A stretch of 32,000 nucleotides of DNA. Origin: Candidatus Saccharimonadota bacterium (GTDB lineage: Bacteria > Patescibacteriota > Gracilibacteria > UBA4473). Under the pieces are notes generated by a model, which was given only the letters and a program-made list of their open reading frames with translations, did not search any database and was not told where the DNA came from. Location of the stretch: assembly GCA_965228485.1 (NCBI GenBank), contig OZ245819.1, positions 1,140,001-1,172,000 on the forward strand, in the 5' to 3' direction. A program made the position numbers and the translations under genes. This document shows positions 3,100 to 29,484 of the stretch, one piece after another (the first letter of the stretch is position 1; the number at the start of each line of letters is the position of its first letter).

Positions 3100-3104
3100 T
3101 TATT

Positions 3105-8561: not shown

Positions 8562-8597
8562 AAAAAGTCCAAATGATTTGATTTTGGGCTTTTTTTG
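8562..8597 (+). terminator. orphan rho-independent-terminator-like hairpin in the divergent intergenic region
   Basis: AAGTCCAAA (8565-8573) pairs with TTTGGGCTT (8583-8591) with one G.U pair and a 9-nt loop. The stem is extendable by A/T pairs and is followed by a T7 run (8590-8596). It overlaps the TTG (8578) that the ORF track uses as the start. Confidence 0.35.
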
Positions 8598-8648
8598 TTG
8601 TGGGAGTGATAAAAGTTGTGAACAAAAAGTTTGCTTGAGGGTAAAATA

Positions 8649-8657
8649 TGATACAAT
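8649..8657 (+). promoter_or_regulatory. extended -10 promoter element TGaTACAAT for the Big_1/FN3 surface protein gene
   Basis: TGATACAATGGG at 8649-8660. The same TGnTACAATGGG string recurs at 10965-10976 upstream of the next gene. The first downstream ATG (8668) lies 10 nt past the -10, so the leader is very short or absent. Confidence 0.4.
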
Positions 8658-8667
8658 GGGATCTGAA

Positions 8668-10938
8668 ATGATTAATATTCAGTCTGTATATAGATTTTTG
8701 GGAGTTTTTCTGGGCATTTATCTTGGGTTGTTTTCTTTTGTGGAGGCGGCTTTTTTAAATGTTCAGGATGCCACCGCAGGAAGCAGTGTTGAGATACGAA
8801 TGTCGAATTTGCTTTCAGATGAGGTAGTGGGCTTTAATCTTTCAAAGCCTGATGGAAAGGTCGTTCGTTTTGAAGGTGTAGCTGATGATTTGGGAGTACT
8901 TAACACTGAAGTTTTCGGATTGCATTTGCGAAAGGCCGGAGACTATCGACTAGAAGCGGTTCGTCAGTATCAATTAGAACAGCCAATATATACTTCTTTT
9001 ACTATCAGTCCAGGTCCCGTTTCGGCTTACAGAACAAAAGTTGAATCAGCGGTTTCTTCTCTGCCAGCCAATGGAGAAACAGAATCGCCTTTTAAGGTCT
9101 TTGTTGAGGATGCTTATGGTAATCCTATTCCTGATCAAAAAGTTCAAGTTTTGTCTTCTCGAAATGATGATATTGTTATCTCCCATGGACTTTCTGATAG
9201 AGACGGAATTGTCCGTGGTAAGGTGGTTTCTAAAACCCCAGGGGTAACTATCCTTTCGGCTCTGGTGGGGGATACCGTTATTTTTGATAAGTCAGAAATT
9301 ATTTTTCATTTGCCTCAAAATGATCTTGGAAATGTAGGATCTTCAGGGAATCTTGGGCGATTTTTGAAAGCTCAGCTTTTTGAAGAAGGATTTGAAGAAG
9401 TAGCGTATTTTGCGATTGAAGAACTACCAGCAGAGGTTATTACTGAGCGTAATTATACCTTTAAGGTTGTAGCAAAAGATCAGAATGGAAGTGTGGTTAA
9501 AAACTATACGGGAACCGTGAGATTTTCTTCGAGTGATAATGAAGCCCAGCTTCCGGCTGATTATGAATTTACTGAAGAAGATCAGGGAGAGCATACTTTT
9601 GCTTTAGCGGTTACTTTCGGTTCTCCTGGACAGCATGAGTTAGTGGTGAATGATAAAAATAATTTTAACATCAAAGGACAGCAAGTAGTTCAGGTTTATG
9701 ATGAAGATCGAACGGGAGAGAATCCTGATGATCAGGCTTTAACGATTATTACTCCGCTAGAAGGAACCTATAGTGCTTCTCGAATGACTATTACTGGTAA
9801 AGGTCCAGCAGGAGCTAATATTAAACTGCTCGATGGACCGACAACATTGATTGAAGATTTAGTGATTGATAGTAATGCGGATTTTGTTTATCAAACTCCA
9901 AACTTGGCTGATGGTCGACATAAGTTTATTGCCGCTTTTATGGATGATTCAGTGGTTTCAAATGAAGTTTCAATTTTGATAGATCAAACACCTCCGCGGG
10001 TTTTGGCTGTAGAGGTTGATCCACCAGACGGAGTTGATCCGAGTAGTGTTTTTCAGGTGAGAGTTTCTTCTAATGAGCCATTGGCGAGTGCTACGTGTGT
10101 ATTTAACGAAATTTCACAAAGTTTAAAACAAGCTGGAACAGCTTTTTCTGGAAACTATCAAGCGCCTAATGCTTGTGGGGAATACCCAATTTCTTGTACC
10201 GTTGCTGACCTTATGGGCAATGAATTACAAGAGCCAAATGCTACAACCGTGAAAGTTTGTGGCGGAGGTGGCGGAGGAGACGGAAAAGATACCGATGGAG
10301 ATCAAATTCCTGATAGTGTTGAAGGATATGAGTTGGATGATGATGGAGATTGTGTTTTGAATTGGTTGGAGTCAAAAACCGCTGACAGTGATGGAGACGG
10401 GATCAATGATCAAGAAGATGCGGATAATGATAGTGATGGTGGAGGGATTGATAATACTCAGGAGTGTAAAACGGACGAAACCGATCCGCTCAATCCAGAA
10501 GATGATAAAACTGGAGATGGGAATAATAATTCAAACATTCACCCAACGGCGGTGTTGAATCTATCGGCTTCTCCAGGAGATAAACGAGTAACCCTTTACT
10601 GGTCTCCAGCTAAGGATGATCAAGAAGTGTCTAAATATAAAGTTTTATTTAGTACAGATCCAAATAATCTGACACAGCAAAATATTACTCCAGACCCTCG
10701 AACTCAGTGGTATGTAGATGGGCTTGAAGAAGGAACAAAATACTTCTTTAAAGTCTTGGCTATCGATGTAAATGGAAATGAAGGAGTACCGAGTAATATG
10801 GTCGAAGCCACTACTAATGGAGATGTTTATCATTCGGCCGCAGTTCCTCGATCTGGAGCTGAGCAGTGGTTGCCATTTATTTTGGCCTTTATTGGAGGAT
10901 TTTTATTCCTGCTTCTCAGTCGGGCTAAAAGAAGCTAA
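8668..10938 (+). CDS. cell-surface adhesin-like protein: signal peptide, Big_1 (invasin/intimin-type Ig) domain, Ca-binding TSP3-like Asp repeats, FN3 domain, C-terminal anchor
   Basis: The ORF is open from 8578 (TTG), but the ATG at 8668 gives a clean signal peptide, MINIQSVYRFLGVFLGIYLGLFSFVEA/AF. Big_1-like SSLPANGETESPFKVFVEDAYGNPIPDQKVQV...GVTILSA. DTDGDQIPD and DSDGDGINDQEDADNDSDGG repeats. FN3-like RVTLYWSPA...KYKV...GTKYFFKVLAIDVNGNEG. C-terminal VPRSG + WLPFILAFIGGFLFLLL + SRAKRS. Confidence 0.8.
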   Translation: MINIQSVYRFLGVFLGIYLGLFSFVEAAFLNVQDATAGSSVEIRMSNLLSDEVVGFNLSKPDGKVVRFEGVADDLGVLNTEVFGLHLRKAGDYRLEAVRQYQLEQPIYTSFTISPGPVSAYRTKVESAVSSLPANGETESPFKVFVEDAYGNPIPDQKVQVLSSRNDDIVISHGLSDRDGIVRGKVVSKTPGVTILSALVGDTVIFDKSEIIFHLPQNDLGNVGSSGNLGRFLKAQLFEEGFEEVAYFAIEELPAEVITERNYTFKVVAKDQNGSVVKNYTGTVRFSSSDNEAQLPADYEFTEEDQGEHTFALAVTFGSPGQHELVVNDKNNFNIKGQQVVQVYDEDRTGENPDDQALTIITPLEGTYSASRMTITGKGPAGANIKLLDGPTTLIEDLVIDSNADFVYQTPNLADGRHKFIAAFMDDSVVSNEVSILIDQTPPRVLAVEVDPPDGVDPSSVFQVRVSSNEPLASATCVFNEISQSLKQAGTAFSGNYQAPNACGEYPISCTVADLMGNELQEPNATTVKVCGGGGGGDGKDTDGDQIPDSVEGYELDDDGDCVLNWLESKTADSDGDGINDQEDADNDSDGGGIDNTQECKTDETDPLNPEDDKTGDGNNNSNIHPTAVLNLSASPGDKRVTLYWSPAKDDQEVSKYKVLFSTDPNNLTQQNITPDPRTQWYVDGLEEGTKYFFKVLAIDVNGNEGVPSNMVEATTNGDVYHSAAVPRSGAEQWLPFILAFIGGFLFLLLSRAKRS

Positions 10939-11008: not shown

Positions 11009-14000
11009 ATGCGTTTACCCCGAAAAACAATAGCGGATTTGCGTCGTGCTGTAGCTGCTGTAGCAGTTTTTTCTATTTTTATACAGACCGCTCAGGCGGT
11101 GATAGTCAATCCAGATGATATTCCTCAGAAAGAGACGGGGGATGCCATTAGTGCAGGAGAATTCAACACGATGATTGATACTCTTCGGGGAGTAAAGAAA
11201 GATGATAATGATACGGCAGGACTCGGAGATGATAAAATAGGATTGTTTTTACCCGATGGGGTGAATCCTACCCAACAACTGCATGTAAATGGGACGGTGA
11301 AGGCCACTTATTTCATGGGAGATGGTTCGAATTTAACGAATCTTCCAGATGTTCACTGGGTGAAAAGTGGTAATGATGTGAATTACCCTACCGGTCGAGT
11401 CGGAGTAGGAATTGCCAGTCCAAACACGAAACTAGAAGTAAAAGATGGGGCTATCCGAGCAACCGCTAATAATTCGAACAACAACTACGTAGAAATGGCT
11501 CATAGTGGTTCAAATGCCTACTTAAACTTTGCTGGGACAGGGAACCTGGATTTTAGACGAAGTGGAGCGACCGAAATGACGCTAACGTCAGCAGGACGAC
11601 TTGGGATTGGAACTTCTAATCCGCAAGCAGTATTGCATGTAAATGGAGATTTAATTGCCGATAATATTATCCCCAGTGGAGGAGGTGGTCCAATTGCTGG
11701 GACTCAGTGGAATGATGTAACTGGAGGAATAGATTATTCCGCTGGGAATGTTGGAATTGGAGCTACAACTCCTTTGTCTAAATTACAGGTTAAAAATACT
11801 ACAGCTTATACTTTGGGAGAAGCAGATTTTCCTACTGATAGTATCGGGTTATATGGATCAGTTTCAGGTGTCAATGGAAGTTATTTTGGAGGTATTACCT
11901 GGCATAATGATGGTCGTCGTCGAGGGGGGATTGCTAGTGTTATGGAAAATGCAGATGCTGATCATGTGGGCTTAGCTTTTTTTACTCAGGGAGCAGATGG
12001 ACCAGGTCCAATGGCTGAATCAATGAGAATTTCTCACGATGGAAATGTTGGTATTAATACCACGACGCCTTCAGAAAGACTTCAGGTTGTAGGACAAGCA
12101 GAAATTCCAGAAGTGATTTTTGCTCAACATGCTAATGGAACGACGGATAAGAGCTCTATTGTAGGGGCTCCTGGGATAGTGCAGATTCACTCTGATGGCG
12201 CGATTGATTTTTACGAATCAGATGCAGGGGCTCAGAAATTTAGATTTAATGTAAATAATGGTCGATTAGGAGTGGGAACAAATAACCCTCAGAATGAAAT
12301 TCATGTTGTGGGGACGATTCGAGCTGACAACTTTGTAGATGATTTGGGTGATCCAATTGGGGATGGACTTTGGACTGAAAACGGGACTAATATTTATTAT
12401 CAAGCTGGACGAGTTGGGATTGGGTCTTCCAATGCCCCATCACACTCTCTAGACATCTTTAATGGTGGGGCAAGAGTTTCGAGTGATCTATACCAACAGG
12501 GTTCTAGTGGGAATGGGTTTATTATGCATTCTAGAGCTAGTTCAAGTTATGATTTTTGGCAATTATCGCCTATTAATGCTGGAACTAATGATTGGGCCAA
12601 AGGGATTACTCTTGTAAGAGCAGAGGGTAATGTTGGGATTAGTAATACTACTCCAGGACATCGATTAGATGTAGATGGAAATATTCGAAGTAGAATTGGT
12701 CGAATTATTTATTTTGGTACAGCGGATCAACGAATCTCTGGAGATAATGATTCAGCTTTTTATCAAAATAGTAACAACTCAACGGTTATTCAGACGATTT
12801 ATCGAGATAAAGAAAATACTGTTTATGGACGAGTTTATGGTTCTGGAAATGGTACAAACTTTGGTCTTCTGGATGGAGATGGAAACTGGGCTATCCAGAG
12901 TGTAAAAGATAATAATATTAATTTCCGAGTGAACAACACGGAAAGAATGAGAATTCAAAATAATGGGCGAGTAGGGATTGGAACAAACTCTCCAAATTCT
13001 AAATTAGAAGTGGTTGGAACGATTCGAGGAGGAGATGCCTCAGCGACTAGTGGTAGTTTAGGGTTTGGTATTAGATATACGGCTAATGATGTTCCGAATA
13101 CTTTTGGAGCGCATTACTCAACCGGAGCTACAGTACTCGGGTATGGAATAAGACCGAAAAGTGGTTCCTCAGGATATGTTTCTTCCGCAGGGAATGTTGC
13201 TTGGCCAAGAGGAGCTCTTACTATGACAGATGCTTTGGTATTTAGTAGTGCGGGGTCGTCTAGTGTAGCAGTAGGAAATGATGTAGCTTTAGCAGAACGG
13301 TTTAGAGTTCATACGAATGGTAATATAGGGATTGATCGAGCCGCTCCTTCTCATAAATTAGATGTAGATGGGAATATTCGAACTCGAGTTGGACGTTCTC
13401 TTTATTTTGGGACGACCAATAATCAGAGTATTTATGGGGATAATAGTTCTGCTTATTACATGGATAGTAATCATGATTCGGTGGTTCAACAAATTTTCCG
13501 AGATCGACAAAATACTACTTATGGACGAATTTATGGAGACGGAAATGGTGCAAACTTTGGTTTGATTGATGGAGATGGAGAGTGGGGAATTCGAATGGCG
13601 AAAGATACCGATATTCAGTTTCGAATAAACAATGATGAGAAAATGAGAATCACCTCTAGTGGAAGTGTAGGAATTGGAGATGATACTCCTGATGGAGGAA
13701 TGATGTTGGACGTAGAAGGGAAAATTGGAGCAATCGAATACTGTGATCAAAATGGTAATAATTGTTCGAGTTTTGGACGTTCAGGATTTACGGCGAGTGG
13801 AAGTAGTTCAACGGCGGATGATTGGTCTCGATTAGTGACGATTGACATGCCAGGAAGTAATTATCAGGATGGGACGATTATGTTAGCCATTGTTGGAGAA
13901 GAAATTAATGAGCCAGGAACGGCTATCGTAAGTATTGCTGTTCGACAGAGGACCAATCCAAGTATGACTATGTCAGCTGAAATTATGGAGATTCATAATG

Positions 14001-16312
14001 CTCCAATTGATATTGATGGGATAAAGTTAACTTCGAATGGTTTTGGAACGGATGTGCAGGTATGGATTAAAAGTAAGAAAAATTATCAAACCTTTGATGT
14101 ATATGAAATTGCTCGGAATACGGCCGAGTTAGGAGCGGTGACTTATGAACAGTCTTCTCCTTGGCAGGCTTCTGAGCCAAGTGGTTCGGCTTACAATGTT
14201 TATAGTCGGGGCTCTGTAGATAAATATACGCGTTATGTGAAATTTAGTGAAAATGATAATCAATTCATCTACGGAGATGGAGATTCAGCTTTTTATACTA
14301 ATAGTGCTCATAGTACCGTGGTTCAGAATATCTTTAGAGATAGAGAAAATACGGTTTATGGTCGAATTTACGGAGATGGGAATGGAGCGAATTTTGGCTT
14401 GCTAGATGGAGATGGAAATTGGGGAATTCTGATGGCAAAAGATAATCGATTTGAGTTTAGATTAAATGATGATGAGAAAATGAGAATTCTAAGTAGTAAT
14501 GGGAATGTCGGAATTAATAATACGACACCAGGTCATAAACTAGATGTAGACGGGAACATTCGAACCCGAGTTGGTCGTTCTGTGTATTTTGGAACGACAA
14601 ACAACCAAAATATCTACGGAGACAATAGTTCGGCTTTTTATACTCGGAGTAATCATAGTACCGTTGTGCAAAACATTTATCGAGATGCTCAGAATACAGT
14701 GTATGGACGAGTTTATGGTTCTGGAGATGGAGCAAATTTCGGTTTATTAGATGGAGATGGAGAATGGGCTGTTCAGAGTGTGAAGGATAACAATATTAAT
14801 TTCCGAGTGAATAACAGTGAAATTATGAGAGTTTCTAGTGGTGGAAATGTTGGGATTGGTACGACTTCTCCATCAGCCGCATTAGAAGTTTATGCAGATA
14901 GAGATATTACTGCTAATCCAGAAACAAAGGGTATTCGGTTAAGAGAAAGTGCAGGAGATTGGCTGTTTTCTTTAGGGGTTTCCGGAGTAACCAATACTGG
15001 GTTTAGTATTCGGGACAATGTTACAGATACCTATCCGCTTACCATTAGAGAGACTTCTAATAATGTGGGGATTAATAATACTGGACCAGGGCACAAACTT
15101 GATGTAGATGGGAATATTCGATCTCGAGTTGGTCGTTCTGTTTATTTCGGAACGACAAATAACCAAAACATCTATGGGGATAATAGTTCAGCTTACTACA
15201 TGGATAGTAATCATGATACGGTCATTCAACAGATATTCAGAGATCGACAAAATACTACTTATGGACGAATTTATGGAGATGGAAATGGTGCAAACTTTGG
15301 TTTGATTGATGGAGATGGAGATTGGGGAATCCAAATGCAAAAAGATAGTAATATTAATTTCCGAATTAATAATACCGAACGGATGCGTTTGAGTGGAAAT
15401 AGTGAGCTACATATCGGAAGTAATCACCTGAATGTGGCGAATTATAATTTCAATGGAACGCCAACTAATGGGATTAAGATTAGAACAAACCTTCCATATA
15501 CCAATGGTTCTCAAATGCCAACTGTGGTGATTGAGGGGTATAACTATGGTCAGGTAAAACCAATTGGTATTATACTCAACTGGTATATTTATGGAGGAAA
15601 TTTTTATAATTATCGAGCGTCTTCTTATGGAGGGTATGCGCCAACAATAAGACTAGCGAATGAAAGTGGTAAAGTCGTGATTTATATCGATGATCGTCAA
15701 TACTACAATCGATTTAATGTTCGAGTTTATGCTCAAGGAATGGGGGGAGTTGAGAGTGATGTGGCTAATTTTCAAAACTGGACGATTGTAGATCAAGCGT
15801 TAACAGGAGGAAATCAAGTCACGTTCTCATATGAAAACGAAATGGGGAACTTGAGACTTCGATCTGGGCGAGTATTGAGCTTTGGTACAGGAGACCAAAG
15901 GCTTTATGGAGATAATGGTTCAGCCCTTTATTATACATCTGAACACAGTTCAGTAACTCAACAAATCTTCCGAGATCAAGAAAATACGGTTTACGGACGA
16001 ATTTATGGAGACAGCAATGGGGCTAATTTTGGATTACTTGATGGAGATGGAAACTGGGGAATTCGAATGGAAAAAGATAATAATATTATGTTCCTCATTA
16101 ATAATAATGAACATATGCGACTTCGAAGTAATGGACGATTGGGGCTTGGGACGACAAATCCTTCTTCTCGACTAGAAGTGATTGGGGATATTGAGATTTC
16201 AGGAACGGTAAAGACTACTTCTGGAGAACTTAGATGTCCAGTTGATCGAGTAATGGTTGGTTTTGATACGAATGGAATCATTTGTGAGTTCCCACCACAG
16301 TTATACCAATAA
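11009..16312 (+). CDS. giant secreted tail-fibre-like repeat protein (1767 aa)
   Basis: Single uninterrupted ORF. Signal peptide ...AVAVFSIFIQTAQA/VIV. More than 15 copies of the tail-fibre-type motif G(N/R)VGIGTxxPxxKL(D/E/H)VxG. Six copies of a ~93-aa module. No C-terminal S74 chaperone domain; the protein ends ...CPVDRVMVGFDTNGIICEFPPQLYQ. Confidence 0.9.
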   Translation: MRLPRKTIADLRRAVAAVAVFSIFIQTAQAVIVNPDDIPQKETGDAISAGEFNTMIDTLRGVKKDDNDTAGLGDDKIGLFLPDGVNPTQQLHVNGTVKATYFMGDGSNLTNLPDVHWVKSGNDVNYPTGRVGVGIASPNTKLEVKDGAIRATANNSNNNYVEMAHSGSNAYLNFAGTGNLDFRRSGATEMTLTSAGRLGIGTSNPQAVLHVNGDLIADNIIPSGGGGPIAGTQWNDVTGGIDYSAGNVGIGATTPLSKLQVKNTTAYTLGEADFPTDSIGLYGSVSGVNGSYFGGITWHNDGRRRGGIASVMENADADHVGLAFFTQGADGPGPMAESMRISHDGNVGINTTTPSERLQVVGQAEIPEVIFAQHANGTTDKSSIVGAPGIVQIHSDGAIDFYESDAGAQKFRFNVNNGRLGVGTNNPQNEIHVVGTIRADNFVDDLGDPIGDGLWTENGTNIYYQAGRVGIGSSNAPSHSLDIFNGGARVSSDLYQQGSSGNGFIMHSRASSSYDFWQLSPINAGTNDWAKGITLVRAEGNVGISNTTPGHRLDVDGNIRSRIGRIIYFGTADQRISGDNDSAFYQNSNNSTVIQTIYRDKENTVYGRVYGSGNGTNFGLLDGDGNWAIQSVKDNNINFRVNNTERMRIQNNGRVGIGTNSPNSKLEVVGTIRGGDASATSGSLGFGIRYTANDVPNTFGAHYSTGATVLGYGIRPKSGSSGYVSSAGNVAWPRGALTMTDALVFSSAGSSSVAVGNDVALAERFRVHTNGNIGIDRAAPSHKLDVDGNIRTRVGRSLYFGTTNNQSIYGDNSSAYYMDSNHDSVVQQIFRDRQNTTYGRIYGDGNGANFGLIDGDGEWGIRMAKDTDIQFRINNDEKMRITSSGSVGIGDDTPDGGMMLDVEGKIGAIEYCDQNGNNCSSFGRSGFTASGSSSTADDWSRLVTIDMPGSNYQDGTIMLAIVGEEINEPGTAIVSIAVRQRTNPSMTMSAEIMEIHNAPIDIDGIKLTSNGFGTDVQVWIKSKKNYQTFDVYEIARNTAELGAVTYEQSSPWQASEPSGSAYNVYSRGSVDKYTRYVKFSENDNQFIYGDGDSAFYTNSAHSTVVQNIFRDRENTVYGRIYGDGNGANFGLLDGDGNWGILMAKDNRFEFRLNDDEKMRILSSNGNVGINNTTPGHKLDVDGNIRTRVGRSVYFGTTNNQNIYGDNSSAFYTRSNHSTVVQNIYRDAQNTVYGRVYGSGDGANFGLLDGDGEWAVQSVKDNNINFRVNNSEIMRVSSGGNVGIGTTSPSAALEVYADRDITANPETKGIRLRESAGDWLFSLGVSGVTNTGFSIRDNVTDTYPLTIRETSNNVGINNTGPGHKLDVDGNIRSRVGRSVYFGTTNNQNIYGDNSSAYYMDSNHDTVIQQIFRDRQNTTYGRIYGDGNGANFGLIDGDGDWGIQMQKDSNINFRINNTERMRLSGNSELHIGSNHLNVANYNFNGTPTNGIKIRTNLPYTNGSQMPTVVIEGYNYGQVKPIGIILNWYIYGGNFYNYRASSYGGYAPTIRLANESGKVVIYIDDRQYYNRFNVRVYAQGMGGVESDVANFQNWTIVDQALTGGNQVTFSYENEMGNLRLRSGRVLSFGTGDQRLYGDNGSALYYTSEHSSVTQQIFRDQENTVYGRIYGDSNGANFGLLDGDGNWGIRMEKDNNIMFLINNNEHMRLRSNGRLGLGTTNPSSRLEVIGDIEISGTVKTTSGELRCPVDRVMVGFDTNGIICEFPPQLYQ
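12710..16153 (+). repeat. six intragenic copies of a ~93-codon module inside the giant gene
   Basis: Modules lie at 12710-12985, 13403-13681, 14234-14521, 14585-14863, 15143-15421 and 15878-16153. Consensus: YFGTxxNQxIYGDNSSAFYxxSNHSTVxQxIxRDxxNTxYGRxYGxGxGANFGLxDGDGxWxxxxxKDxxIxFRxNNxExMRIxxxGxVGIGT. Modules 2 and 5 form one pair and modules 1 and 4 form another. Confidence 0.9.
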
Positions 16313-16318
16313 GGTAGT

Positions 16319-16386
16319 GTCATCTCGACAAAAAACAAGGAGAGATCTCTCCTTGGGAATTTTCAAAATACTTTCGTCGAGATGAC
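16319..16386 (+). terminator. nested stem-loop immediately after the giant gene (possible terminator or mRNA-stabilising structure)
   Basis: Outer 11-bp stem GTCATCTCGAC (16319-16329) / GTCGAGATGAC (16376-16386). It encloses a perfect 18-nt palindrome AAGGAGAGATCTCTCCTT (16337-16354), which is followed by GGGAATTTTC. The structure begins 7 nt after the TAA stop. Confidence 0.4.
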
Positions 16387-16453: not shown

Positions 16454-16643
16454 GACTCTGGACAAGCCAGAGATTTACAAAGGAATAAGACTAAAATTCT
16501 CGCTTGCTGAGAATCTAAATAGGCTGAATAGGAATTATCGGACTCTGGACAAGCCAGAGATTTACAAAGAAATAAGACCAAAATTCTCGCTTGCCGAGAA
16601 TCTGATCTTTCTACATTTAGTGATAAGGCTCTGGACAAGCTGG
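16454..16643. repeat. tandem 63-bp structured repeat (2 full copies plus a partial third) with non-homologous 24-nt spacers
   Basis: Copy 1 is 16454-16516 and copy 2 is 16541-16603, with 3 mismatches in 63. The partial copy GCTCTGGACAAGC lies at 16628-16640. Period is 86-87 bp. Each full copy holds two hairpins: CTCTGG-ACAAG-CCAGAG and ATTCTC(G)-CTTGC-(C/T)GAGAAT. Confidence 0.85.
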
Positions 16644-17099: not shown

Positions 17100-18602
17100 A
17101 TGAATATTTCGTTTCAAACCGATTTCAGAGAATGGATGGATACCCATCGTTGGAAGCCAAAAGAGATAGCTGAAGAACTGGGTGTAAGTCGTCAGACGAT
17201 TCATCACTGGATGGATGGGACGAGTGTTCCTAAGAATGAAGAGGTTATTAAAAAACTTTATCGTTTGGGGGGGGACAAATTGATCCACTTTGAAAATCGA
17301 GACGAAAAACCACGAATTGCTAAACCAAAAGCTTATTTTGAAGTTGAAGGTGGAGCGACTATTAGTGGAAAAATTAGAATTAGCGGAGCTAAAAATGCCG
17401 CTTTGCCAATGCTCTGTGGAGCGCTTTTAACCGAAGAGAAATGTACTTTTCTAGACGTGCCACATATTACCGATGTGCAGAATCTGCTTTCGATTTTTTC
17501 TGAGATTGGAGTAGATGTGAAGTATTTTCCAGAACAGAAGAGAGTGGAGATTCAAGCAAGGCATGTGGATCTTGATAAACTGGCGGCTTCAGAGGAAGTA
17601 CGAAAGTTTAGGGCTTCAATTCTCATGATGGGACCATTGCTGGCTCGATTTGGGCGTTGTAAGCTTCTTATGCCAGGAGGATGTGTAATTGGGGCTCGTC
17701 CAAACTACATTCATACTGATGGTCTTCAGGTTTTAGGTGCTAAAATGACCGAAGGAGAGGATTTTTTGGATTTTGTTTTTAAAGACGGAAAGTTAGCGAA
17801 TAATCGGCTACTTTTATCAGAAGCTTCTGTTACAGGAACAGAGAATATTGCCATGTTTTTATCAGGAACGGACGATTCTGCTGAAATATATTTTGCAGCA
17901 GCAGAGCCTCATGTAGTTGGGACGCTCAAAATGCTTCAAGAAATGGGGGCTGATATTGAAGGAATTGGAACACATCATTTGAAAATTACAGGAACTAAAA
18001 AATTAAAAGGTGGAACCTTTACTATCCCCCCAGATGGTCTTTTGGTAGGGACTTATGCTATTGCAGCACTCATTACTCAAGGGGATTTGTTGATTGAAAA
18101 TGTTGATCATAGAGAGCTTTTTTCTTTTTATGGTATTTTGAAACGACTGGGAGCTGATTTTGAAATGAAGGATAAGGCACTGCATGTAAAACGGTCAAAA
18201 AACCTCACGGCTATCCCAAAGGTTCAGACGGCTATTTTCCCTGGTTTTTCTACAGATTTACAGAGCCCATTGGGAGTTTTGCTAACTCAGTGTGAAGGGA
18301 TGTCTCTACTATTTGAGACTTTATTTGAAAATCGTTTAACCTATTTGCTTGAGTTGGAGAAAATGGGCGCTAATGTACAGATTCTTAATCCTCATCAGGC
18401 AAAGCTTACAGGTAAAACGAAGCTTCAAGCCGCAGAAGTTCAGAGTTGGGATCTGCGTGCAGGAGCGGCTATGGTTTTGGCTGGACTTATTGCTGAAGGG
18501 GTGACTAAAATTACAAATATTGATTATATCGATCGTGGATATGAGAACTTTGTAGAGAATCTTTCGGCTCTTGGAGCGAAGATCCATAGAGTAGATTTTT
18601 AG
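17100..18602 (+). CDS. murA: UDP-N-acetylglucosamine 1-carboxyvinyltransferase (MurA) with an apparent ~75-aa N-terminal helix-turn-helix extension
   Basis: From about aa 80 it aligns by eye with E. coli MurA: ISGAKNAALP, RASILMMGPLLARFG, PGGCVIGARP (active-site Cys retained), FPGFSTDLQ, FENR, DLRAGAAMVLAGLIAEG, IDRGYE. Residues 1-60 contain WKPKEIAEELGVSRQTIHHWMDGTSVP, an XRE/Cro-like HTH. Confidence 0.9.
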   Translation: MNISFQTDFREWMDTHRWKPKEIAEELGVSRQTIHHWMDGTSVPKNEEVIKKLYRLGGDKLIHFENRDEKPRIAKPKAYFEVEGGATISGKIRISGAKNAALPMLCGALLTEEKCTFLDVPHITDVQNLLSIFSEIGVDVKYFPEQKRVEIQARHVDLDKLAASEEVRKFRASILMMGPLLARFGRCKLLMPGGCVIGARPNYIHTDGLQVLGAKMTEGEDFLDFVFKDGKLANNRLLLSEASVTGTENIAMFLSGTDDSAEIYFAAAEPHVVGTLKMLQEMGADIEGIGTHHLKITGTKKLKGGTFTIPPDGLLVGTYAIAALITQGDLLIENVDHRELFSFYGILKRLGADFEMKDKALHVKRSKNLTAIPKVQTAIFPGFSTDLQSPLGVLLTQCEGMSLLFETLFENRLTYLLELEKMGANVQILNPHQAKLTGKTKLQAAEVQSWDLRAGAAMVLAGLIAEGVTKITNIDYIDRGYENFVENLSALGAKIHRVDF

Positions 18603-26116: not shown

Positions 26117-26144
26117 TTGTTCGGGAGTATTTTTGCCTTAAAAT
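26117..26144 (+). promoter_or_regulatory. candidate promoter TTGTTC-N16-TAAAAT for the second fibre gene
   Basis: TTGTTC at 26117-26122 and TAAAAT at 26139-26144. The -10 overlaps the ATG at 26143, which would make the ATG at 26158 (MDKNKFRSSLPFF...) the real start. Confidence 0.3.
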
Positions 26145-29100
26145 GGAGCCTTGTAGAATGGATAAAAATAAATTTCGCTCCTCGTTGCCGTTTTTTTCTC
26201 TTGTTTTAGGAAGTTGTGTGTTCTTCGCGTCACCGGCTTTTGCCATTACGTGGCAGTATGCAACTGATGCAGAATTACAATCAGGACAACCCATTAAAGC
26301 TATACACGTAAAAGAAGTCCGAGATAAAATGGTCTGGGATTTGAATGGTGTTAGAACGTTTTATAATGGTGGTAATGTTGGGATTGGGGTTGCGTCTCCA
26401 AATCACAAGTTAGATATTAGTGGTGGAAATGTTCAGATTCGTGGAACGAGTGCGGGTCCAATTGCCGATACCTTCGGGGGGAATACTCAGCAGTCTTATA
26501 TTCATTTTCCTGCAGTTTCAGGATCGAATGATCCAGGATATATTATGCATGAAACTCGTGGAGCAGAAAATAATGAAGGAGTCCTTCATCTAGCGCCTTC
26601 AGATGATAATGTCTATGGGGATTATGTTTCTATTCATGGGACGAATGATCCAGATAGAATTAAACTTCACACTGATGGGACGGTAGAAGGGGTGACGAAT
26701 TTTACGGCCACAGGAACGGCTCGAATTAGTGGAAGCGTAGGGATTGGAACGACAAGCCCGAATGAAAAATTAGATGTTATCGGTAATATTGAACTTACCG
26801 GACGAATTGATACGGAGATTCCGGTTAATGGTGTGGCCTGGAGTTTTGAAGGTGGTGAATTTATCCGAAAAATGACCGATCGAGGAGGAGTAAGAATTGG
26901 TAAAGATGATTCTCTTGTGATTGGGGATGGAGAGGCTCCTGATACGATTTCCAATAATGTAAATATGTTATCTGAAAATACCTATGTTGGTTCTGATAAT
27001 AATGTTTATATTTACACAGATTTGCAGAATGGATGGGGGTATAGAAAAGCTTTTACTTTTAGAGATAATGGACGTTTTGGAATTGGAACGACCAACCCAG
27101 GACAAACCCTGGATGTTGTGGGAACGACTCAGACTGATTATCTGATTCTTAATCCTCAAGATGGAAGTAGTGAAGGAGGAGAGCTTCGATTAGATGGAGC
27201 TGGTAGTAACACGACTTGGTCTATGGATAATTATGCTGGGAGAATTCGTTTTTATCATGATGGTTCAGAGCGATTAACGATCAGAAATAATGGTCGTGTT
27301 GGGATTGGTACAGCGAGTCCTGGCGCGCCTCTGCACGTTGCGGGGAATATTATTGCGAGTAATCCAACAGCCAGTAATCATGTAGCGACTAAATCCTATG
27401 TAGACTCTCAAGGAGGATCAGACAATCTAGGAGATCATATTGGACGACGGAATCTAGTGTTCAACGATTATGGAAAAGGAGTCGTAGGGACTTATAGCTC
27501 GGTTCGTTACCAGAATTTATTCTCAATGGGAACAGCCTATGTTCCCGCGACGAATGGAACCGCTCTAAACAACATGTATGGGATTGCGTGGACGCATTCG
27601 AATGTTGGGGGAGAGTCAGTTCCAGGGTTGGGACACCAAGCGTTATTTGTAGCGGCGGGAGATACTCGGAGTGCTATTGGGACTGGAGTTTGGACAAAAT
27701 ATGATATAACCGGAAATCGATTTATGGATCAAAACAATACCGGGTACTACCTTGATCCACACTCGGTTTCTTATCTAAATGATATTCGACCAAATATTAT
27801 TTACGATCGGCAAAATACCGGATATTACGTGGATCCAAATGGAACGACAAATCTTAACAACCTTTACGTTCAGGGGAATGAACTGGGGGTTAATGGAGAA
27901 GCGAATTTCTGTGGTTCAGCGGGATGTACTCATTTTGCTTATGATAATGGGGGGCCGAATAATTATATTCGTGGGACGCTTTATCATAATGCTCGAATGT
28001 ATGATGAGAATAATACAGCTTATTCATTAGATATGGATAATGTGTCGTACTTTAATGATATTCGACCGAATGTTATCTATGATCGACAAAATACGGGATA
28101 TTATGTTGATCCAAATGGTTCTACGAATCTTGCGAATCTTCGAAGTACGGGGAATTATGTGATGAATAATGGTTCTCCAACTATCTATCTTCAGGATAGT
28201 GATCATCGGTCAGGGATAATTCATATGAATAGTAATCTGATGTATTTCCTTCGAGGGAGTGGAAATAATAGTACGAATTGGGCAACTTATAATGGGATGT
28301 GGCCGTTGTATTTGAACATGACAAATAATCAGGCTATATTTGGTGGAAGTATTGGAGTTCGTGCAACTCCAGGAGGGTCTTTCCATAATCACGCAGCGAT
28401 TGCCCTAGGGGATAGTGATACCGGAATTCGTCAGGATGGTGATGGTCAGTTAGAACTTTGGACGAACAATGTAGAAAGAATGCATATCCGAAATGATGGG
28501 GCGACTGGAATCGGGGTTGGAAATCCAACGGCTCGTCTTCAGGTTCATAAAGGGGTTACCTATAACGGTAATGCACTTCCCGATTGGGGTGATCGATCGA
28601 CTATTGGAGTAACGGGGACTTATCCAGCGTTGGTGGTAGGTTCTAGTGTGAACAATTGGAATCATGCAGGAGCTATTTCTCTTTGGCATCGTGTAAATGG
28701 TTCTGGTAACACTCGAAACTGGAATATCGGGGCGGCTCAAAATGGTCTAACCATTGGGACGTGTGTGAATAATGGAAATCCTCACTGTGGGCTTGAAAAT
28801 TATTCAGCTGCTTCAATCTTGAGTTTGGAGAATAATGGTAATGTCGGGGTAGGAACAATTGGGCCCGCTCGTAAGTTCCATGTTTATGGACCAAATTACG
28901 TACGATTCCAATCCCCTCATGGGTATGTAGATATTGGGCCAGGGAATGGTTCGTATACGCACTTCTATACAGATCGAGGACAGTATTACTTCAATAAAAG
29001 AATTATGGTTGATGAAGGAGTAATTGGAGCTTACAACGATCATCTTTATCTGAGAACTGGAGGAAATACTCGAATCTTTGCCAATAAAGATAATGGACGA

Positions 29101-29484
29101 GTGGGAGTTGGAAAAACAAACCCAGGTGAGCGATTAGATATTAATGGTTCTGCAAAAGCTGATGCCTTCCTCTATAATTCTGATAGACGACTGAAAAAAG
29201 ATATTCAAACTATTAGTGGTCTTGATATTATTGAACGACTTAGAGGAGTAACTTTCACCTGGAAATCTGATGATTCTAAATCGGTTGGTTTGATTGCCCA
29301 AGAGGTGGAAACAGTTCTGCCTGAAGCGGTAAGAACCAGCGATCAGGATGGATTCAAAACGGTGGATTACGCCAAACTTGTCGCACCACTCATCGAAGCC
29401 GTTAAAGAGCAAAAAGCGCAAATTGAAGCCCAACAAGCTCAGATTAATAATCTGACAAGACAGGTTTCTGAATTACAAAACTAA
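26143..29484 (+). CDS. secreted tail-fibre-like protein with a C-terminal S74 intramolecular-chaperone autoprotease domain (1113 aa; alternative start 26158)
   Basis: Signal peptide ...FFSLVLGSCVFFASPAFA/ITW. Repeated GxVGIGTxxPxxxLDVxG motifs. The tail-fibre-type block NHVATKSYVD. The C-terminus NSDRRLKKDIQTISGLDIIERLRGVTFTWKSDDSKSVGLIAQEVETVLPEAV...VDYAKLVAPLIEAVKEQ plus a coiled coil matches the endosialidase/tail-spike chaperone domain. Confidence 0.9.
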   Translation: MEPCRMDKNKFRSSLPFFSLVLGSCVFFASPAFAITWQYATDAELQSGQPIKAIHVKEVRDKMVWDLNGVRTFYNGGNVGIGVASPNHKLDISGGNVQIRGTSAGPIADTFGGNTQQSYIHFPAVSGSNDPGYIMHETRGAENNEGVLHLAPSDDNVYGDYVSIHGTNDPDRIKLHTDGTVEGVTNFTATGTARISGSVGIGTTSPNEKLDVIGNIELTGRIDTEIPVNGVAWSFEGGEFIRKMTDRGGVRIGKDDSLVIGDGEAPDTISNNVNMLSENTYVGSDNNVYIYTDLQNGWGYRKAFTFRDNGRFGIGTTNPGQTLDVVGTTQTDYLILNPQDGSSEGGELRLDGAGSNTTWSMDNYAGRIRFYHDGSERLTIRNNGRVGIGTASPGAPLHVAGNIIASNPTASNHVATKSYVDSQGGSDNLGDHIGRRNLVFNDYGKGVVGTYSSVRYQNLFSMGTAYVPATNGTALNNMYGIAWTHSNVGGESVPGLGHQALFVAAGDTRSAIGTGVWTKYDITGNRFMDQNNTGYYLDPHSVSYLNDIRPNIIYDRQNTGYYVDPNGTTNLNNLYVQGNELGVNGEANFCGSAGCTHFAYDNGGPNNYIRGTLYHNARMYDENNTAYSLDMDNVSYFNDIRPNVIYDRQNTGYYVDPNGSTNLANLRSTGNYVMNNGSPTIYLQDSDHRSGIIHMNSNLMYFLRGSGNNSTNWATYNGMWPLYLNMTNNQAIFGGSIGVRATPGGSFHNHAAIALGDSDTGIRQDGDGQLELWTNNVERMHIRNDGATGIGVGNPTARLQVHKGVTYNGNALPDWGDRSTIGVTGTYPALVVGSSVNNWNHAGAISLWHRVNGSGNTRNWNIGAAQNGLTIGTCVNNGNPHCGLENYSAASILSLENNGNVGVGTIGPARKFHVYGPNYVRFQSPHGYVDIGPGNGSYTHFYTDRGQYYFNKRIMVDEGVIGAYNDHLYLRTGGNTRIFANKDNGRVGVGKTNPGERLDINGSAKADAFLYNSDRRLKKDIQTISGLDIIERLRGVTFTWKSDDSKSVGLIAQEVETVLPEAVRTSDQDGFKTVDYAKLVAPLIEAVKEQKAQIEAQQAQINNLTRQVSELQN
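27733..28140 (+). repeat. two copies of a 44-codon unit spaced exactly 92 codons apart inside the second fibre gene
   Basis: 27733-27864 encodes NNTGYYLDPHSVSYLNDIRPNIIYDRQNTGYYVDPNGTTNLNNL. 28009-28140 encodes NNTAYSLDMDNVSYFNDIRPNVIYDRQNTGYYVDPNGSTNLANL. Confidence 0.85.

What the first reader, a model, noticed from the sequence alone, without database searches (positions are those of the whole stretch)
11009..16312. 1767-aa Sec-exported tail-fibre-like giant protein built from six copies of an unrecognised ~93-aa module, in a non-phage context
The protein has a signal peptide and more than 15 GxVGIGTxxPxxKLxVxG units, the motif typical of phage tail-fibre-like proteins. There are no capsid, tail, baseplate, terminase or integrase genes in 32 kb. 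It embeds six copies of a module (YFGT..NQ.IYGDNSSAFY..SNHSTV.Q.I.RD..NT.YGR.YG.G.GANFGL.DGDG.W....KD..I.FR.NN.E.MRI) that I cannot assign to any named family. Two unique globular inserts (about 13750-14230 and 15430-15870) lie between modules. Unlike its paralogue at 26143, it lacks the S74 chaperone domain. I read this as a cellular surface fibre for attachment or prey/host recognition, derived from phage fibre architecture. It is my best candidate for something undescribed in this window.
Basis: partly seen in the sequence, partly recalled or inferred. Interest (0 to 1): 0.75.

Follow-up and report, generated by a model that had tools for sequence, protein, structure and literature searches.

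The report
Cell-encoded phage-fibre-like surface fibre
This is a very long, exported fibre protein that a tiny-genome (CPR-type) bacterium encodes on its own chromosome; it is built like the phage-tail-fibre-like "MAT" adhesion fibres of the predator Bdellovibrio, and its six repeated modules are a special, unnamed version of the normal fibre-shaft unit, not a new kind of domain.

Summary
ORF 11009-16312 encodes a 1767-aa protein with an N-terminal signal peptide, 14-15 GxVGIGT motifs, six ~93-aa modules, two non-repeated inserts and no S74 domain. The 32 kb contain no phage genes.

This class is already described: by sequence and fold, the only solved relatives are the Bdellovibrio mosaic adhesive trimer (MAT) fibres, and the GxVGIGT motif is their capping loop. 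The module is not a new fold. Its model (pLDDT 95) matches MAT and phage fibre beta-helix units, and its last third aligns by sequence with the MAT unit. Its first ~55 residues belong to no named family. The core has 230 relatives among 1.84 billion representative proteins, in Bacteroidota and CPR genomes, and none in the phage searches.

The gene lies at a conserved locus (PBP1 – Big_1/fn3 membrane protein – fibre genes) in three related ~1.3-Mb CPR genomes. Only the fibre's first ~95 residues are conserved; the rest is a mosaic of shuffled cassettes.

Best reading: a homotrimeric surface fibre anchored by its N-terminus and used for cell-to-cell (host) attachment. The function is inferred, not shown. 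I rate it a new variant of a known kind, interest about 0.4.

The parts
11009..16312 (+). Gene for the 1767-aa exported fibre protein. It is of the non-S74 type.
   Evidence: ORF list and translation. It is 100% identical to public protein P0151. PHROG tail-fibre profile phrog_9942, E = 1.5e-43. The PDB sequence hits are Bdellovibrio MAT fibres.
11009..11098 (+). Sec-type signal peptide (aa 1-30, predicted cleavage after AQA).
   Evidence: Sequence inspection and hydropathy: this is the only hydrophobic segment in the protein. No predictor was run.
11099..11383 (+). Conserved N-terminal domain (aa 31-125). This is the presumed cell-proximal anchor or trimer start.
   Evidence: It is 48-53% identical to the N-termini of the fibres at the syntenic loci (P0018, P0020, P0153 cluster), while the rest of those proteins differs.
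11384..12691 (+). Seven heterogeneous fibre units, each ending in a GxVGIGTxxPxxKL capping loop (aa 126-561).
   Evidence: Motif profile scan. One cassette (aa 263-345) is 71% identical to segments of the S74 fibres P0159 and P0189.
12692..12982 (+). Module copy 1 (aa 562-658).
13031..13318 (+). Non-repeated cassette (aa 675-770) between module 1 and the next capping loop.
   Evidence: It has homologues in other fibre proteins: P0135 at 53% and P0174 at 47% identity.
13388..13678 (+). Module copy 2 (aa 794-890). Copy 5 is its closest relative (87% identity over the core).
13727..14224 (+). Insert 1 (aa 907-1072). It starts with an EYCDxxGxNC Cys pair (C912, C919).
   Evidence: It is 37% identical over about 180 aa to P0038 residues 865-1037. 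Its fold was not modelled.
14225..14515 (+). Module copy 3 (aa 1073-1169). It follows insert 1 directly, with no preceding capping loop.
14570..14860 (+). Module copy 4 (aa 1188-1284). This is the copy that was modelled.
   Evidence: AlphaFold2 model of aa 1165-1299 with a 53-sequence alignment: pLDDT 95.4, pTM 0.81, 13 beta strands.
14906..15058 (+). Short non-repeated cassette (aa 1300-1350).
   Evidence: Only weak homologues were found in other fibres.
15128..15418 (+). Module copy 5 (aa 1374-1470).
15419..15859 (+). Insert 2 (aa 1471-1617), a beta-sandwich cassette.
   Evidence: Homologues at 30-55% identity in P0277, P0152, P0188, P0179, P0250 and P0164; in P0152, P0188 and P0179 it follows a capping-loop sequence, and several copies are followed by a GxVGIG motif. 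Model: pLDDT 74.5, pTM 0.73. The best PDB folds are tailspike-like proteins (WceF 6tgf, phage tailspikes 6e1r and 7xy1), E = 2e-3 to 2e-2.
15860..16150 (+). Module copy 6 (aa 1618-1714).
   Evidence: Its nearest relative is a module in another protein (P0015, 71%).
16199..16309 (+). Short C-terminal end (aa 1731-1767) with a Cys pair (C1743, C1759). There is no S74 domain and no recognisable tip domain.
   Evidence: Pfam finds nothing here. It is 70% identical to the C-terminus of P0111.
16336..16355 (.). Palindromic GC-rich hairpin just after the stop codon (terminator-like).
8578..10938 (+). Upstream gene for a 786-aa surface protein with Big_1 and fn3 domains, an Asp-rich region and a C-terminal TM helix. 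Its position immediately upstream of the fibre genes is conserved in all three genomes. It is a possible partner or dock; this is an inference.
   Evidence: Pfam domains. It is 60% and 50% identical to the proteins at the same position in L010 and L011.
26143..29484 (+). Second fibre gene in the window (1113 aa). It has a signal peptide, seven capping loops and a C-terminal S74 chaperone. Its N-terminus differs from that of the 1767-aa fibre.

Best explanation
The gene encodes a cell-made, Sec-exported fibre of the same kind as the Bdellovibrio MAT proteins, in the non-S74 subgroup. The host is a small-genome CPR bacterium, probably Peregrinibacteria-like.

Shown here:
- The gene sits in a chromosomal, non-phage setting at a locus conserved in relatives.
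- The protein has an export signal.
- It has 14-15 capping-loop motifs that align with MAT capping loops.
- It is a mosaic of cassettes, each with its own relatives in other fibres.
- Only the first ~95 mature residues are conserved with the fibres at the same locus in related genomes.
- Each of the six modules is one inter-capping-loop unit. Its model resembles MAT and phage fibre beta-helix units, and its last third is sequence-homologous to the MAT unit.

Inferred, not shown:
- After export, three chains intertwine into a fibre roughly 100 nm long. This estimate scales from Bd3182, which has 922 aa and measures about 550 Å.
- The conserved N-terminal domain holds the fibre on the cell, possibly through the conserved neighbouring Big_1/fn3 membrane protein.
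- The variable distal part (six beta-helix modules, two beta-sandwich cassettes and a small disulphide-bonded end) contacts the surface of another cell, most likely its glycans. This could use lateral clefts bounded by capping loops, as proposed for Bd3182 and the P22 tailspike.
- In an episymbiotic CPR bacterium this contact would serve host attachment.
For: - Context. All the neighbours that can be named are cellular genes, and no PHROG structural hits occur apart from an fn3 match. There is synteny with L010 (1.33-Mb contig) and with L011 (GCA_009994005.1, whose fibre cluster carries both Peregrinibacteria and Parcubacteria labels).
- Relation to MAT by sequence. The whole protein hits only Bd3182 and Bd2133 chains in the PDB. 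The module profile hits only MAT chains, with Bd2133 at E = 1.4e-11.
- Relation to MAT by fold. The top 14 PDB Foldseek hits for the module model are MAT beta-helix domains, with probability 0.80-1.00. There are 82 BFVD hits to phage and giant-virus fibres.
- Definition of MAT features: PMC10769870.
- Mosaicism.
- The relatives' fibres at the same locus carry C1q (TNF-like) tips. This is the same tip fold as in Bd2439 and Bd2734.
- Short module proteins have the layout signal peptide – capping loop – module – capping loop – S74. The module therefore occupies the position of the Bd3182 tip beta-helix.
- Module-bearing genes elsewhere are chromosomal. None was found in IMG/VR or INPHARED.
Against: - No experiment or proteomic evidence shows surface display or binding.
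- Trimerisation was not modelled, because only monomer prediction was available.
- Foldseek TM-scores to the MAT structures are low (0.23-0.29), so the fold similarity is local.
- The conserved ~130-aa N-terminal domain that defines the Bdellovibrio MATs could not be compared. The N-terminus here resembles only CPR relatives.
- The C-terminus is only about 37 aa, whereas the adhesive element of MATs is a proper tip domain.
- CPR cells lack an outer membrane, so anchoring must differ from that in Bdellovibrio.
- The taxonomic placement rests on the labels of relatives and on genome size, not on marker genes.
Confidence: 0.6

Rival explanations
1. The fibre is a structural envelope element, such as a surface coat, a spacer, or a means of cell-cell cohesion within the population. 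On this reading it is not a specific host- or prey-recognition adhesin, and the six highly conserved modules are simply rigid shaft.
For: - The modules are unusually conserved across phyla: 50-70% identity, with a mean column identity of 42% across 53 sequences. This is typical of structural elements rather than receptor-binding ones.
- There is no recognisable tip domain.
- The module model matches shaft beta-helix units.
Against: - The distal part is hypervariable between related genomes while the N-terminus is conserved. That pattern is expected for recognition functions.
- Sister fibres at the same locus carry C1q lectin-like tips.
- Insert 2 resembles accessory domains of tailspikes.
Confidence: 0.2
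2. The six modules are themselves the ligand-binding units. Each trimeric beta-helix segment would offer lateral clefts between two capping loops, giving a multivalent glycan-binding fibre. The conserved YGDNSSAxY, RDxxNTxYGR and DGDGxW residues would form the binding or metal site.
For: - In Bd3182 the cleft between two capping loops is the proposed O-antigen site.
- In short homologues the module is the last unit before the S74 chaperone, which is the tip position.
- The same cassette is kept at high identity in otherwise unrelated fibres of Bacteroidota and CPR. This suggests a self-contained function.
Against: - No ligand or site was tested, and no model coordinates were available for mapping conservation onto the surface.
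- Invariant Gly, Asp and aromatic residues fit turn and core constraints of a beta-helix equally well.
- Bd2133 beta-helices lack such a cleft.
Confidence: 0.3
3. The gene is a phage or tailocin tail fibre left in a decayed prophage, or the fibre still serves a phage-like particle.
For: - There are strong PHROG tail-fibre profile matches.
- The fold matches many phage fibres.
- A second fibre in the window has the S74 chaperone typical of phage fibres.
Against: - No other phage gene, integrase or tRNA occurs in the 32 kb.
- The locus is syntenic between housekeeping genes in three genomes whose flanking proteins share only 50-64% identity.
- The protein has a Sec signal peptide, which virion fibres lack (established knowledge).
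- The module is absent from IMG/VR (pattern scan) and from INPHARED (tblastn).
Confidence: 0.04

Closest known systems
Bdellovibrio bacteriovorus MAT (mosaic adhesive trimer) superfamily, non-S74 subgroup, e.g. Bd2133 and Bd1334 (Caulton et al. 2024, PMC10769870)
   Same: - Both are cell-encoded, with a signal peptide.
- Both are long fibres made of beta-helix units bounded by the same capping-loop motif; direct alignments are.
- Both are mosaic, with one conserved end and a variable remainder.
- Both families have S74 and non-S74 members, and both types occur in this window.
- Sister fibres at the locus carry C1q/TNF-like tips, as Bd2439 and Bd2734 do.
   Different: - The host is a ~1.3-Mb CPR-type genome, not a predatory proteobacterium. 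CPR are not listed among MAT-bearing taxa in the paper's Table S3.
- The N-terminal domain resembles only CPR relatives. Its relation to the MAT N-domain was not tested.
- There is no globular tip. Instead, one specific unit is repeated six times and two beta-sandwich cassettes are inserted along the shaft.
- The first ~55 residues of the module core have no counterpart in MAT sequences.
Phage and giant-virus tail-fibre-like proteins with capping-loop repeats and, often, an S74 intramolecular chaperone (PHROG 9942 and 18345; T5 L-shaped fibre and K1F endosialidase as cited in PMC10769870)
   Same: The repeat architecture and fold class are shared. The paralogue at 26143 has the S74 domain.
   Different: This protein has a signal peptide, a chromosomal housekeeping context and no S74 domain. 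The module core was not found in the phage collections.
Large extracellular, strain-variable proteins of Peribacteria/Peregrinibacteria proposed to mediate attachment (Anantharaman et al. 2016, PMC4736985)
   Same: Both occur in small CPR genomes, and both are big exported proteins that vary between strains and are proposed to function in attachment to other cells.
   Different: The paper highlights cysteine-rich and FG-GAP proteins and does not describe capping-loop fibres. This protein has only 4 Cys.
Trimeric autotransporter adhesins (YadA/AtaA type)
   Same: They are functional analogues: long, modular, homotrimeric surface fibres with repeated stalk units. This comparison rests on established knowledge.
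   Different: This protein has no autotransporter beta-barrel anchor and no coiled-coil stalk. It is oriented with an N-terminal anchor, and its fold differs. The only TAA entry in the fold search was far down the list (3wpr, E = 2).

Membership tests
MAT superfamily (PMC10769870) | N-terminal signal peptide (exported, cell-encoded protein) | tested here: met
   The sequence has a basic n-region, a hydrophobic core at aa 11-33 and an AQA cleavage motif. The context is chromosomal. No signal-peptide predictor was available.
MAT superfamily (PMC10769870) | Capping-loop motif (V-G-G/N-small-x-x-P-x-x-x-L) recurring along the fibre | tested here: met
   There are 14 full copies and 1 half copy. 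HMMER aligns them with the Bd3182, Bd2133, Bd1334 and Bd2439 capping-loop regions.
MAT superfamily (PMC10769870) | Intertwined trimeric beta-helix fibre | tested here: inconclusive
   The monomer model of a module (pLDDT 95.4) has the MAT beta-helix domains as its top 14 PDB hits, with probability 0.80-1.00 but TM-scores of only 0.23-0.29. Trimer prediction was not possible with the tools.
MAT superfamily (PMC10769870) | [quoted passage not shown] | not testable with these tools
   No Bdellovibrio MAT N-terminal sequence or structure was available; the PDB entries cover C-terminal parts only, and AFDB was not available on the server. The N-domain here is shared with CPR relatives and is unlike the N-terminus of a Bacteriovoracaceae fibre, P0234.
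MAT superfamily (PMC10769870) | Mosaic build: one end conserved for retention, the other diversified; several family members per genome | tested here: met
   The N-terminus (aa 31-125) is 48-53% identical to the fibres at the syntenic loci, while the rest is made of cassettes with separate homologues. L010 has four fibre genes with this N-terminus. The window has two fibre genes.
MAT superfamily (PMC10769870) | Terminal S74 chaperone or an alternative adhesive tip domain | tested here: not met
   There is no S74 domain. Only about 37 residues follow the last capping loop, and no known tip fold was found. Sister fibres do have C1q tips.
MAT superfamily (PMC10769870) | Surface display and binding of another cell's surface molecules | not testable with these tools
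   This needs microscopy, proteomics or binding assays.
Phage virion tail fibre | Encoded within a phage structural gene cluster or prophage | tested here: not met
   The window has no phage genes, integrase or tRNA. The chromosomal synteny is conserved.
Phage virion tail fibre | Sequence match to tail-fibre profiles | tested here: met
   phrog_9942 at E = 1.5e-43 and phrog_18345 at E = 3.1e-27. The matches lie in capping-loop units, not in the module core.
Peptidase_S74 (PF13884) fibres | C-terminal intramolecular chaperone with an SDxxxK motif | tested here: not met
   It is absent from this protein and present in the paralogue at aa 1013-1064.
Pfam BTB_3 / LAGLIDADG_1 (the labels that appear on this protein) | A domain match that is significant on its own | tested here: not met
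   The whole-protein E-values are 1.5e-6 and 2.6e-4, but no stretch is individually significant. The best stretches fall inside modules 6 and 5. This is a repeat-summation artefact.

The most novel reading that the evidence does not exclude
The conserved locus (PBP1 – Big_1/fn3 membrane protein – hypervariable fibre genes) may be the host-recognition apparatus of this Peregrinibacteria-like CPR lineage. On this reading, fibres dock by their shared N-terminal domain, possibly onto the Big_1/fn3 protein. They display interchangeable cassettes, including a conserved glycan- or metal-binding beta-helix module that is exchanged horizontally with predatory or surface-associated Bacteroidota. Fibre repertoire would then determine which hosts a CPR episymbiont can attach to.
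Probability: 0.25. Interest if true: 0.7.

Novelty: new variant of a known kind. Interest (0 to 1): 0.4.

Why it matters
How CPR/Patescibacteria cells find and hold their hosts is largely unknown, and very few can be cultured.

If this locus encodes MAT-like fibres, it extends a prey-recognition system known from Bdellovibrio to a very different cell type that has no outer membrane and a ~1.3-Mb genome. It also gives concrete candidate genes for host specificity: a conserved anchor end that can be used to find all such fibres, and variable cassettes to compare between strains and hosts.

The module is a well-defined, unnamed sequence family with about 230 representative clusters. It deserves a family model so that public records stop carrying a spurious BTB_3 label.

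If the fibre turns out to be merely structural, the finding is an ordinary example of a known protein class.

Tried and rejected
- **Word-indexed homologue search with one module.** It found nothing. This was a limit of the index, not true absence: the exhaustive profile search found 230 relatives and the GTDB scan found 9 loci.
- **The look-up of encoding contigs for the window's own proteins.** It returned nothing, so the genome record and its taxonomy could not be read directly. The taxonomy is inferred from relatives.
- **Word-indexed search with insert 2.** It gave only 3 hits; the alignment for its model was completed from earlier hits.
- **PF26696 (PTL_trimer).** This family is recorded, mostly faintly, on some relatives, but it is not in the local Pfam copy and I could not work out what it covers. 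It is not recorded on this protein, so it does not describe the module.
- **Pfam BTB_3 and LAGLIDADG_1 hits.** Rejected as repeat-summation artefacts.
- **Terminase_5 hit on the EPSP synthase N-terminus.** Rejected; it is a 21-residue HTH resemblance.
- **Prophage reading.** Rejected.
- **Assembly-collapse artefact.** Rejected, because the DNA copies are only 63-83% identical.
- **Literature.** Searches linking CPR or Peregrinibacteria with tail fibres or endosialidase chaperones found nothing relevant.
Full report
**Observation.** The window has one long ORF at 11009-16312 (+), 1767 aa.
- The N-terminus, MRLPRKTIADLRRAVAAVAVFSIFIQTAQA|VIV, has the layout of a Sec signal peptide. It is the only strongly hydrophobic segment, and there is no LPXTG motif or second TM helix.
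- A regular-expression and profile scan finds 14 full GxVGIGTxxPxxKL motifs plus one half-motif.
- Six copies of a ~93-aa module are present, with GDNSSAFY cores at aa 578, 810, 1089, 1204, 1390 and 1634. They are 56-78% identical as protein and 63-83% identical as DNA. They are therefore old, diverged copies and not an assembly artefact.
- Pfam finds no S74 domain here but does find one in the second fibre gene, 26143-29484.
- The Pfam 'hits' BTB_3 and LAGLIDADG_1 have no individually significant stretch and fall inside modules. They are summed weak matches over the repeats.

**Context.** All the neighbours that can be named are cellular:
- a Cu-oxidase_4 protein, a GST/glutaredoxin-2-like protein, a class A PBP and a Big_1/fn3 surface protein;
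- a LapA-domain protein, EPSP synthase, LemA and DUF3137;
- an ECF sigma factor, a DUF3298/PdaC protein and an SF1 helicase.

PHROG scans of the unnamed neighbours find nothing phage-like, apart from an fn3 resemblance. There are no tRNAs and no Rfam families.

The protein is identical to a public sequence on a 1,295,315-bp contig, which is the size of a complete CPR genome.

Two related genomes show the same gene order. L010 lies on a 1,326,059-bp contig. L011 is from GCA_009994005.1, and its fibre cluster carries the labels 'Candidatus Peregrinibacteria', 'Candidatus Parcubacteria' or simply 'bacterium'. The order is Cu-oxidase_4/GST – PBP1 – Big_1/fn3 protein – fibre gene(s), and the flanking proteins are 50-64% identical to those of the window.

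At that position:
- L010 carries four fibre genes of 516, 868, 1232 and 1236 aa; the two long ones have FG-GAP repeats and a C1q tip.
- L011 carries a fibre of more than 3047 aa.

Only the first ~95 mature residues of these fibres are conserved with the window protein, at 48-53% identity. The locus is therefore a stable chromosomal site holding hypervariable fibre genes. It is not a prophage.

**What the protein is.** PHROG tail-fibre profiles match strongly (phrog_9942, E = 1.5e-43).

In the PDB, the only real sequence matches are Bdellovibrio bacteriovorus fibre proteins: Bd3182 (8ojn) and Bd2133 (8ond). [quoted passage not shown] 2024 (PMC10769870). MAT proteins have these features:
- they are cell-encoded and carry a signal peptide;
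- they are about 1000 aa long and form intertwined trimeric beta-helix fibres;
- they have recurring 'capping loops', a conserved N-terminal domain and variable tips;
- they end either in an S74 chaperone or without one.

HMMER aligns GRVGIGTNSPNSKLEVVG of this protein with GRVGVGTTAPTSALHVIG of Bd3182, which lies in the R656-H669 loop described in the paper.

**What the module is.** The 78-aa module core has no Pfam, NCBIfam or PHROG family.
- A word-indexed search found nothing.
- An exhaustive profile search of 1.84 billion representative proteins found 230 relatives at E ≤ 1e-3, 160 of them at E ≤ 1e-10.
- A pattern scan of GTDB species genomes found the module in nine MAGs labelled Chitinophagaceae, Chitinophagales, Saprospiraceae, Flavobacteriales, Hyphomicrobiales, 'Deltaproteobacteria', Gracilibacteria, Peregrinibacteria and Peribacteria. 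Identity was 47-68%.
- Most of these proteins have one copy; a few have two to four. Six copies is the most seen.
- In most homologues the module follows a capping loop (…GN[IL]R.DGR), and in nearly all it is followed by INNSEKMRI..NGNVGIGT.
- Two other module-bearing genes examined (P0001, P0285) also sit among ordinary cellular genes.
- No copy was found in IMG/VR by pattern scan or in INPHARED by tblastn.

An AlphaFold2 model of aa 1165-1299, built with a 53-sequence alignment, is very confident: pLDDT 95.4, pTM 0.81, 13 short beta strands.
- Against the PDB, its top 14 Foldseek hits are all MAT fibre beta-helix domains (Bd1334, Bd2439, Bd2133, Bd3182). Probabilities are 0.80-1.00 and E is about 1e-3 or weaker, but TM-scores are only 0.23-0.29.
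- Against BFVD it has 82 hits at E ≤ 1e-3. The 50 listed are phage or giant-virus proteins, many annotated as S74-bearing or tail-fibre-like, again with low TM-scores.
- A sequence profile of module plus flanks hits only MAT chains in the PDB, with Bd2133 at E = 1.4e-11. The alignment covers the module's last third plus the capping loop (DGNW…F.INN..EKMRI..GNVGIGT). The first ~55 residues are unmatched.

The module is therefore one inter-capping-loop fibre unit of the MAT or phage type, with a distinctive and strongly conserved N-terminal two-thirds. It is not a new globular domain class.

In short homologues the layout is signal peptide – capping loop – module – capping loop – S74 chaperone (for example P0044). 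There the module occupies the position of the Bd3182 tip beta-helix, whose cleft between two capping loops is the proposed O-antigen site.

**The other pieces.** Each stretch between capping loops has its own set of relatives in other fibre proteins:
- aa 263-345 is 71% identical to segments of the S74 fibres P0159 and P0189;
- aa 675-770 is 53% identical to P0135;
- insert 1 is 37% identical to P0038;
- insert 2 is 30-55% identical to P0277, P0152, P0188, P0179, P0250 and P0164; in P0152, P0188 and P0179 it follows a capping-loop sequence, and several copies are followed by a GxVGIG motif;
- the last 43 residues are 70% identical to the C-terminus of P0111.

This is the mosaic pattern that gave the MAT family its name.

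The insert 2 model (pLDDT 74.5, with a core of about 85; pTM 0.73) is a beta-sandwich. Its best PDB matches are tailspike-like proteins: WceF (6tgf) and the phage tailspikes or fibres 6e1r and 7xy1. The matches are weak, with E = 2e-3 to 2e-2 and TMq 0.30-0.50.

The protein has only four cysteines, in two local pairs (912/919 and 1743/1759), which is consistent with an extracytoplasmic location.

**How it most likely works.**
- *Shown:* an export signal, a chromosomal locus, MAT-type capping loops and units, a mosaic build, and a conserved N-terminal end.
- *Inferred from the MAT and phage-fibre literature:* three chains intertwine into a fibre. Scaling from Bd3182 (922 aa, about 550 Å) gives roughly 100 nm.
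- *Inferred:* the conserved N-terminal domain is cell-proximal. The conserved upstream Big_1/fn3 protein, which has a C-terminal TM helix, is a candidate dock; this is speculation based on conserved adjacency in three genomes.
- *Inferred:* the variable distal part contacts another cell's surface.

CPR bacteria of this kind are thought to depend on hosts. The Peribacteria genome paper had already pointed to large, strain-variable extracellular proteins as possible attachment factors (PMC4736985).

Whether the six modules are inert shaft or lateral binding sites cannot be decided here. Their cross-phylum conservation fits either a structural constraint or a self-contained binding cassette.

**Comparison and novelty.** The protein works like a non-S74 MAT fibre and meets the tested criteria: signal peptide, capping loops and mosaicism. 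Three criteria are not satisfied:
- the defining N-terminal domain could not be compared;
- trimerisation is untested;
- there is no recognisable tip domain.

I therefore file it as MAT-like and not as a proven member.

MAT-bearing taxa listed by Caulton et al. (Table S3) include Oligoflexia, Bacteroidota, Myxococcales, a Planctomycete and OP3, but no CPR. Full-text searches found no paper linking CPR with such fibres. NCBI does, however, already label some of these proteins 'tail fiber domain-containing protein'.

The new elements are:
- the CPR host;
- the conserved hypervariable locus;
- the unnamed module family and its six-fold reiteration;
- the shaft-inserted beta-sandwich cassettes.

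Verdict: a new variant of a known kind, with interest about 0.4.

Noticed in passing
window 16456-16643: In the intergenic region downstream of the fibre gene, a ~87-nt unit occurs twice (about 16456-16520 and 16543-16607): ctctggacaagccagagatttacaaagRaataagacYaaaattctcgcttgcYgagaatct. A third partial start lies at about 16629. Each unit contains two short inverted repeats. There is no Rfam match, and TRF does not report the repeat.
   Followed up: partly
window 832-5534 (- strand): Two large signal-peptide proteins of 755 and 809 aa have no Pfam, NCBIfam or PHROG family. They lie between Cu-oxidase_4 and GST, whereas in relative L011 those two genes are adjacent. This looks like a lineage-specific insertion of surface-protein genes. 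The 809-aa protein has a His-rich run (HNHHHHHGHLGHHRHHG), an internal TM segment and a Cys-rich C-terminal region.
   Followed up: partly
window 8578-10938 (+): A 786-aa Big_1/fn3 protein with an Asp-rich, thrombospondin-like stretch and a C-terminal TM helix lies immediately upstream of the fibre gene(s) in all three related genomes, with gaps of about 70-125 nt. It may be a functional partner of the fibres.
   Followed up: partly
window 11009-16312; public record P0151: The precomputed public annotation of this protein carries only PF16017 (BTB_3). This is a repeat-summation artefact with no significant single stretch.
   Followed up: yes
module homologues among P0001-P0150 (listed): Several module homologues have Trp at otherwise invariant Gly positions (for example YWDNSSAFY and DWDGSWSY). 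This is as expected if UGA = Gly (code 25, Gracilibacteria/Absconditabacteria) genes were translated with UGA = Trp. The module family therefore extends into alternatively coded CPR.
   Followed up: no
window about 27730-28150 (paralogue aa ~530-670): The S74-bearing fibre contains its own internal duplication of a different cassette (…NDIRPN[IV]IYDRQNTGYYVDPNG[TS]TNL…). This cassette is unrelated to the six-copy module.
   Followed up: no
window 17100-18602 (+): The EPSP synthase carries an N-terminal helix-turn-helix extension at aa ~10-51, ahead of the enzyme domain at aa 82-488. This is an unusual fusion. The weak 'Terminase_5' hit is this HTH.
   Followed up: no
L010 10001-18438; L014 1222-4458: Sister fibres in related genomes end in FG-GAP repeats plus a C1q domain (P0020 and its 1236-aa neighbour). 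A 1078-aa two-module fibre with S74 occurs in the same assemblies as the >3000-aa fibre, judging by NCBI accessions that differ by only 3 (NCS96102 and NCS96105). This suggests clustered fibre genes.
   Followed up: partly
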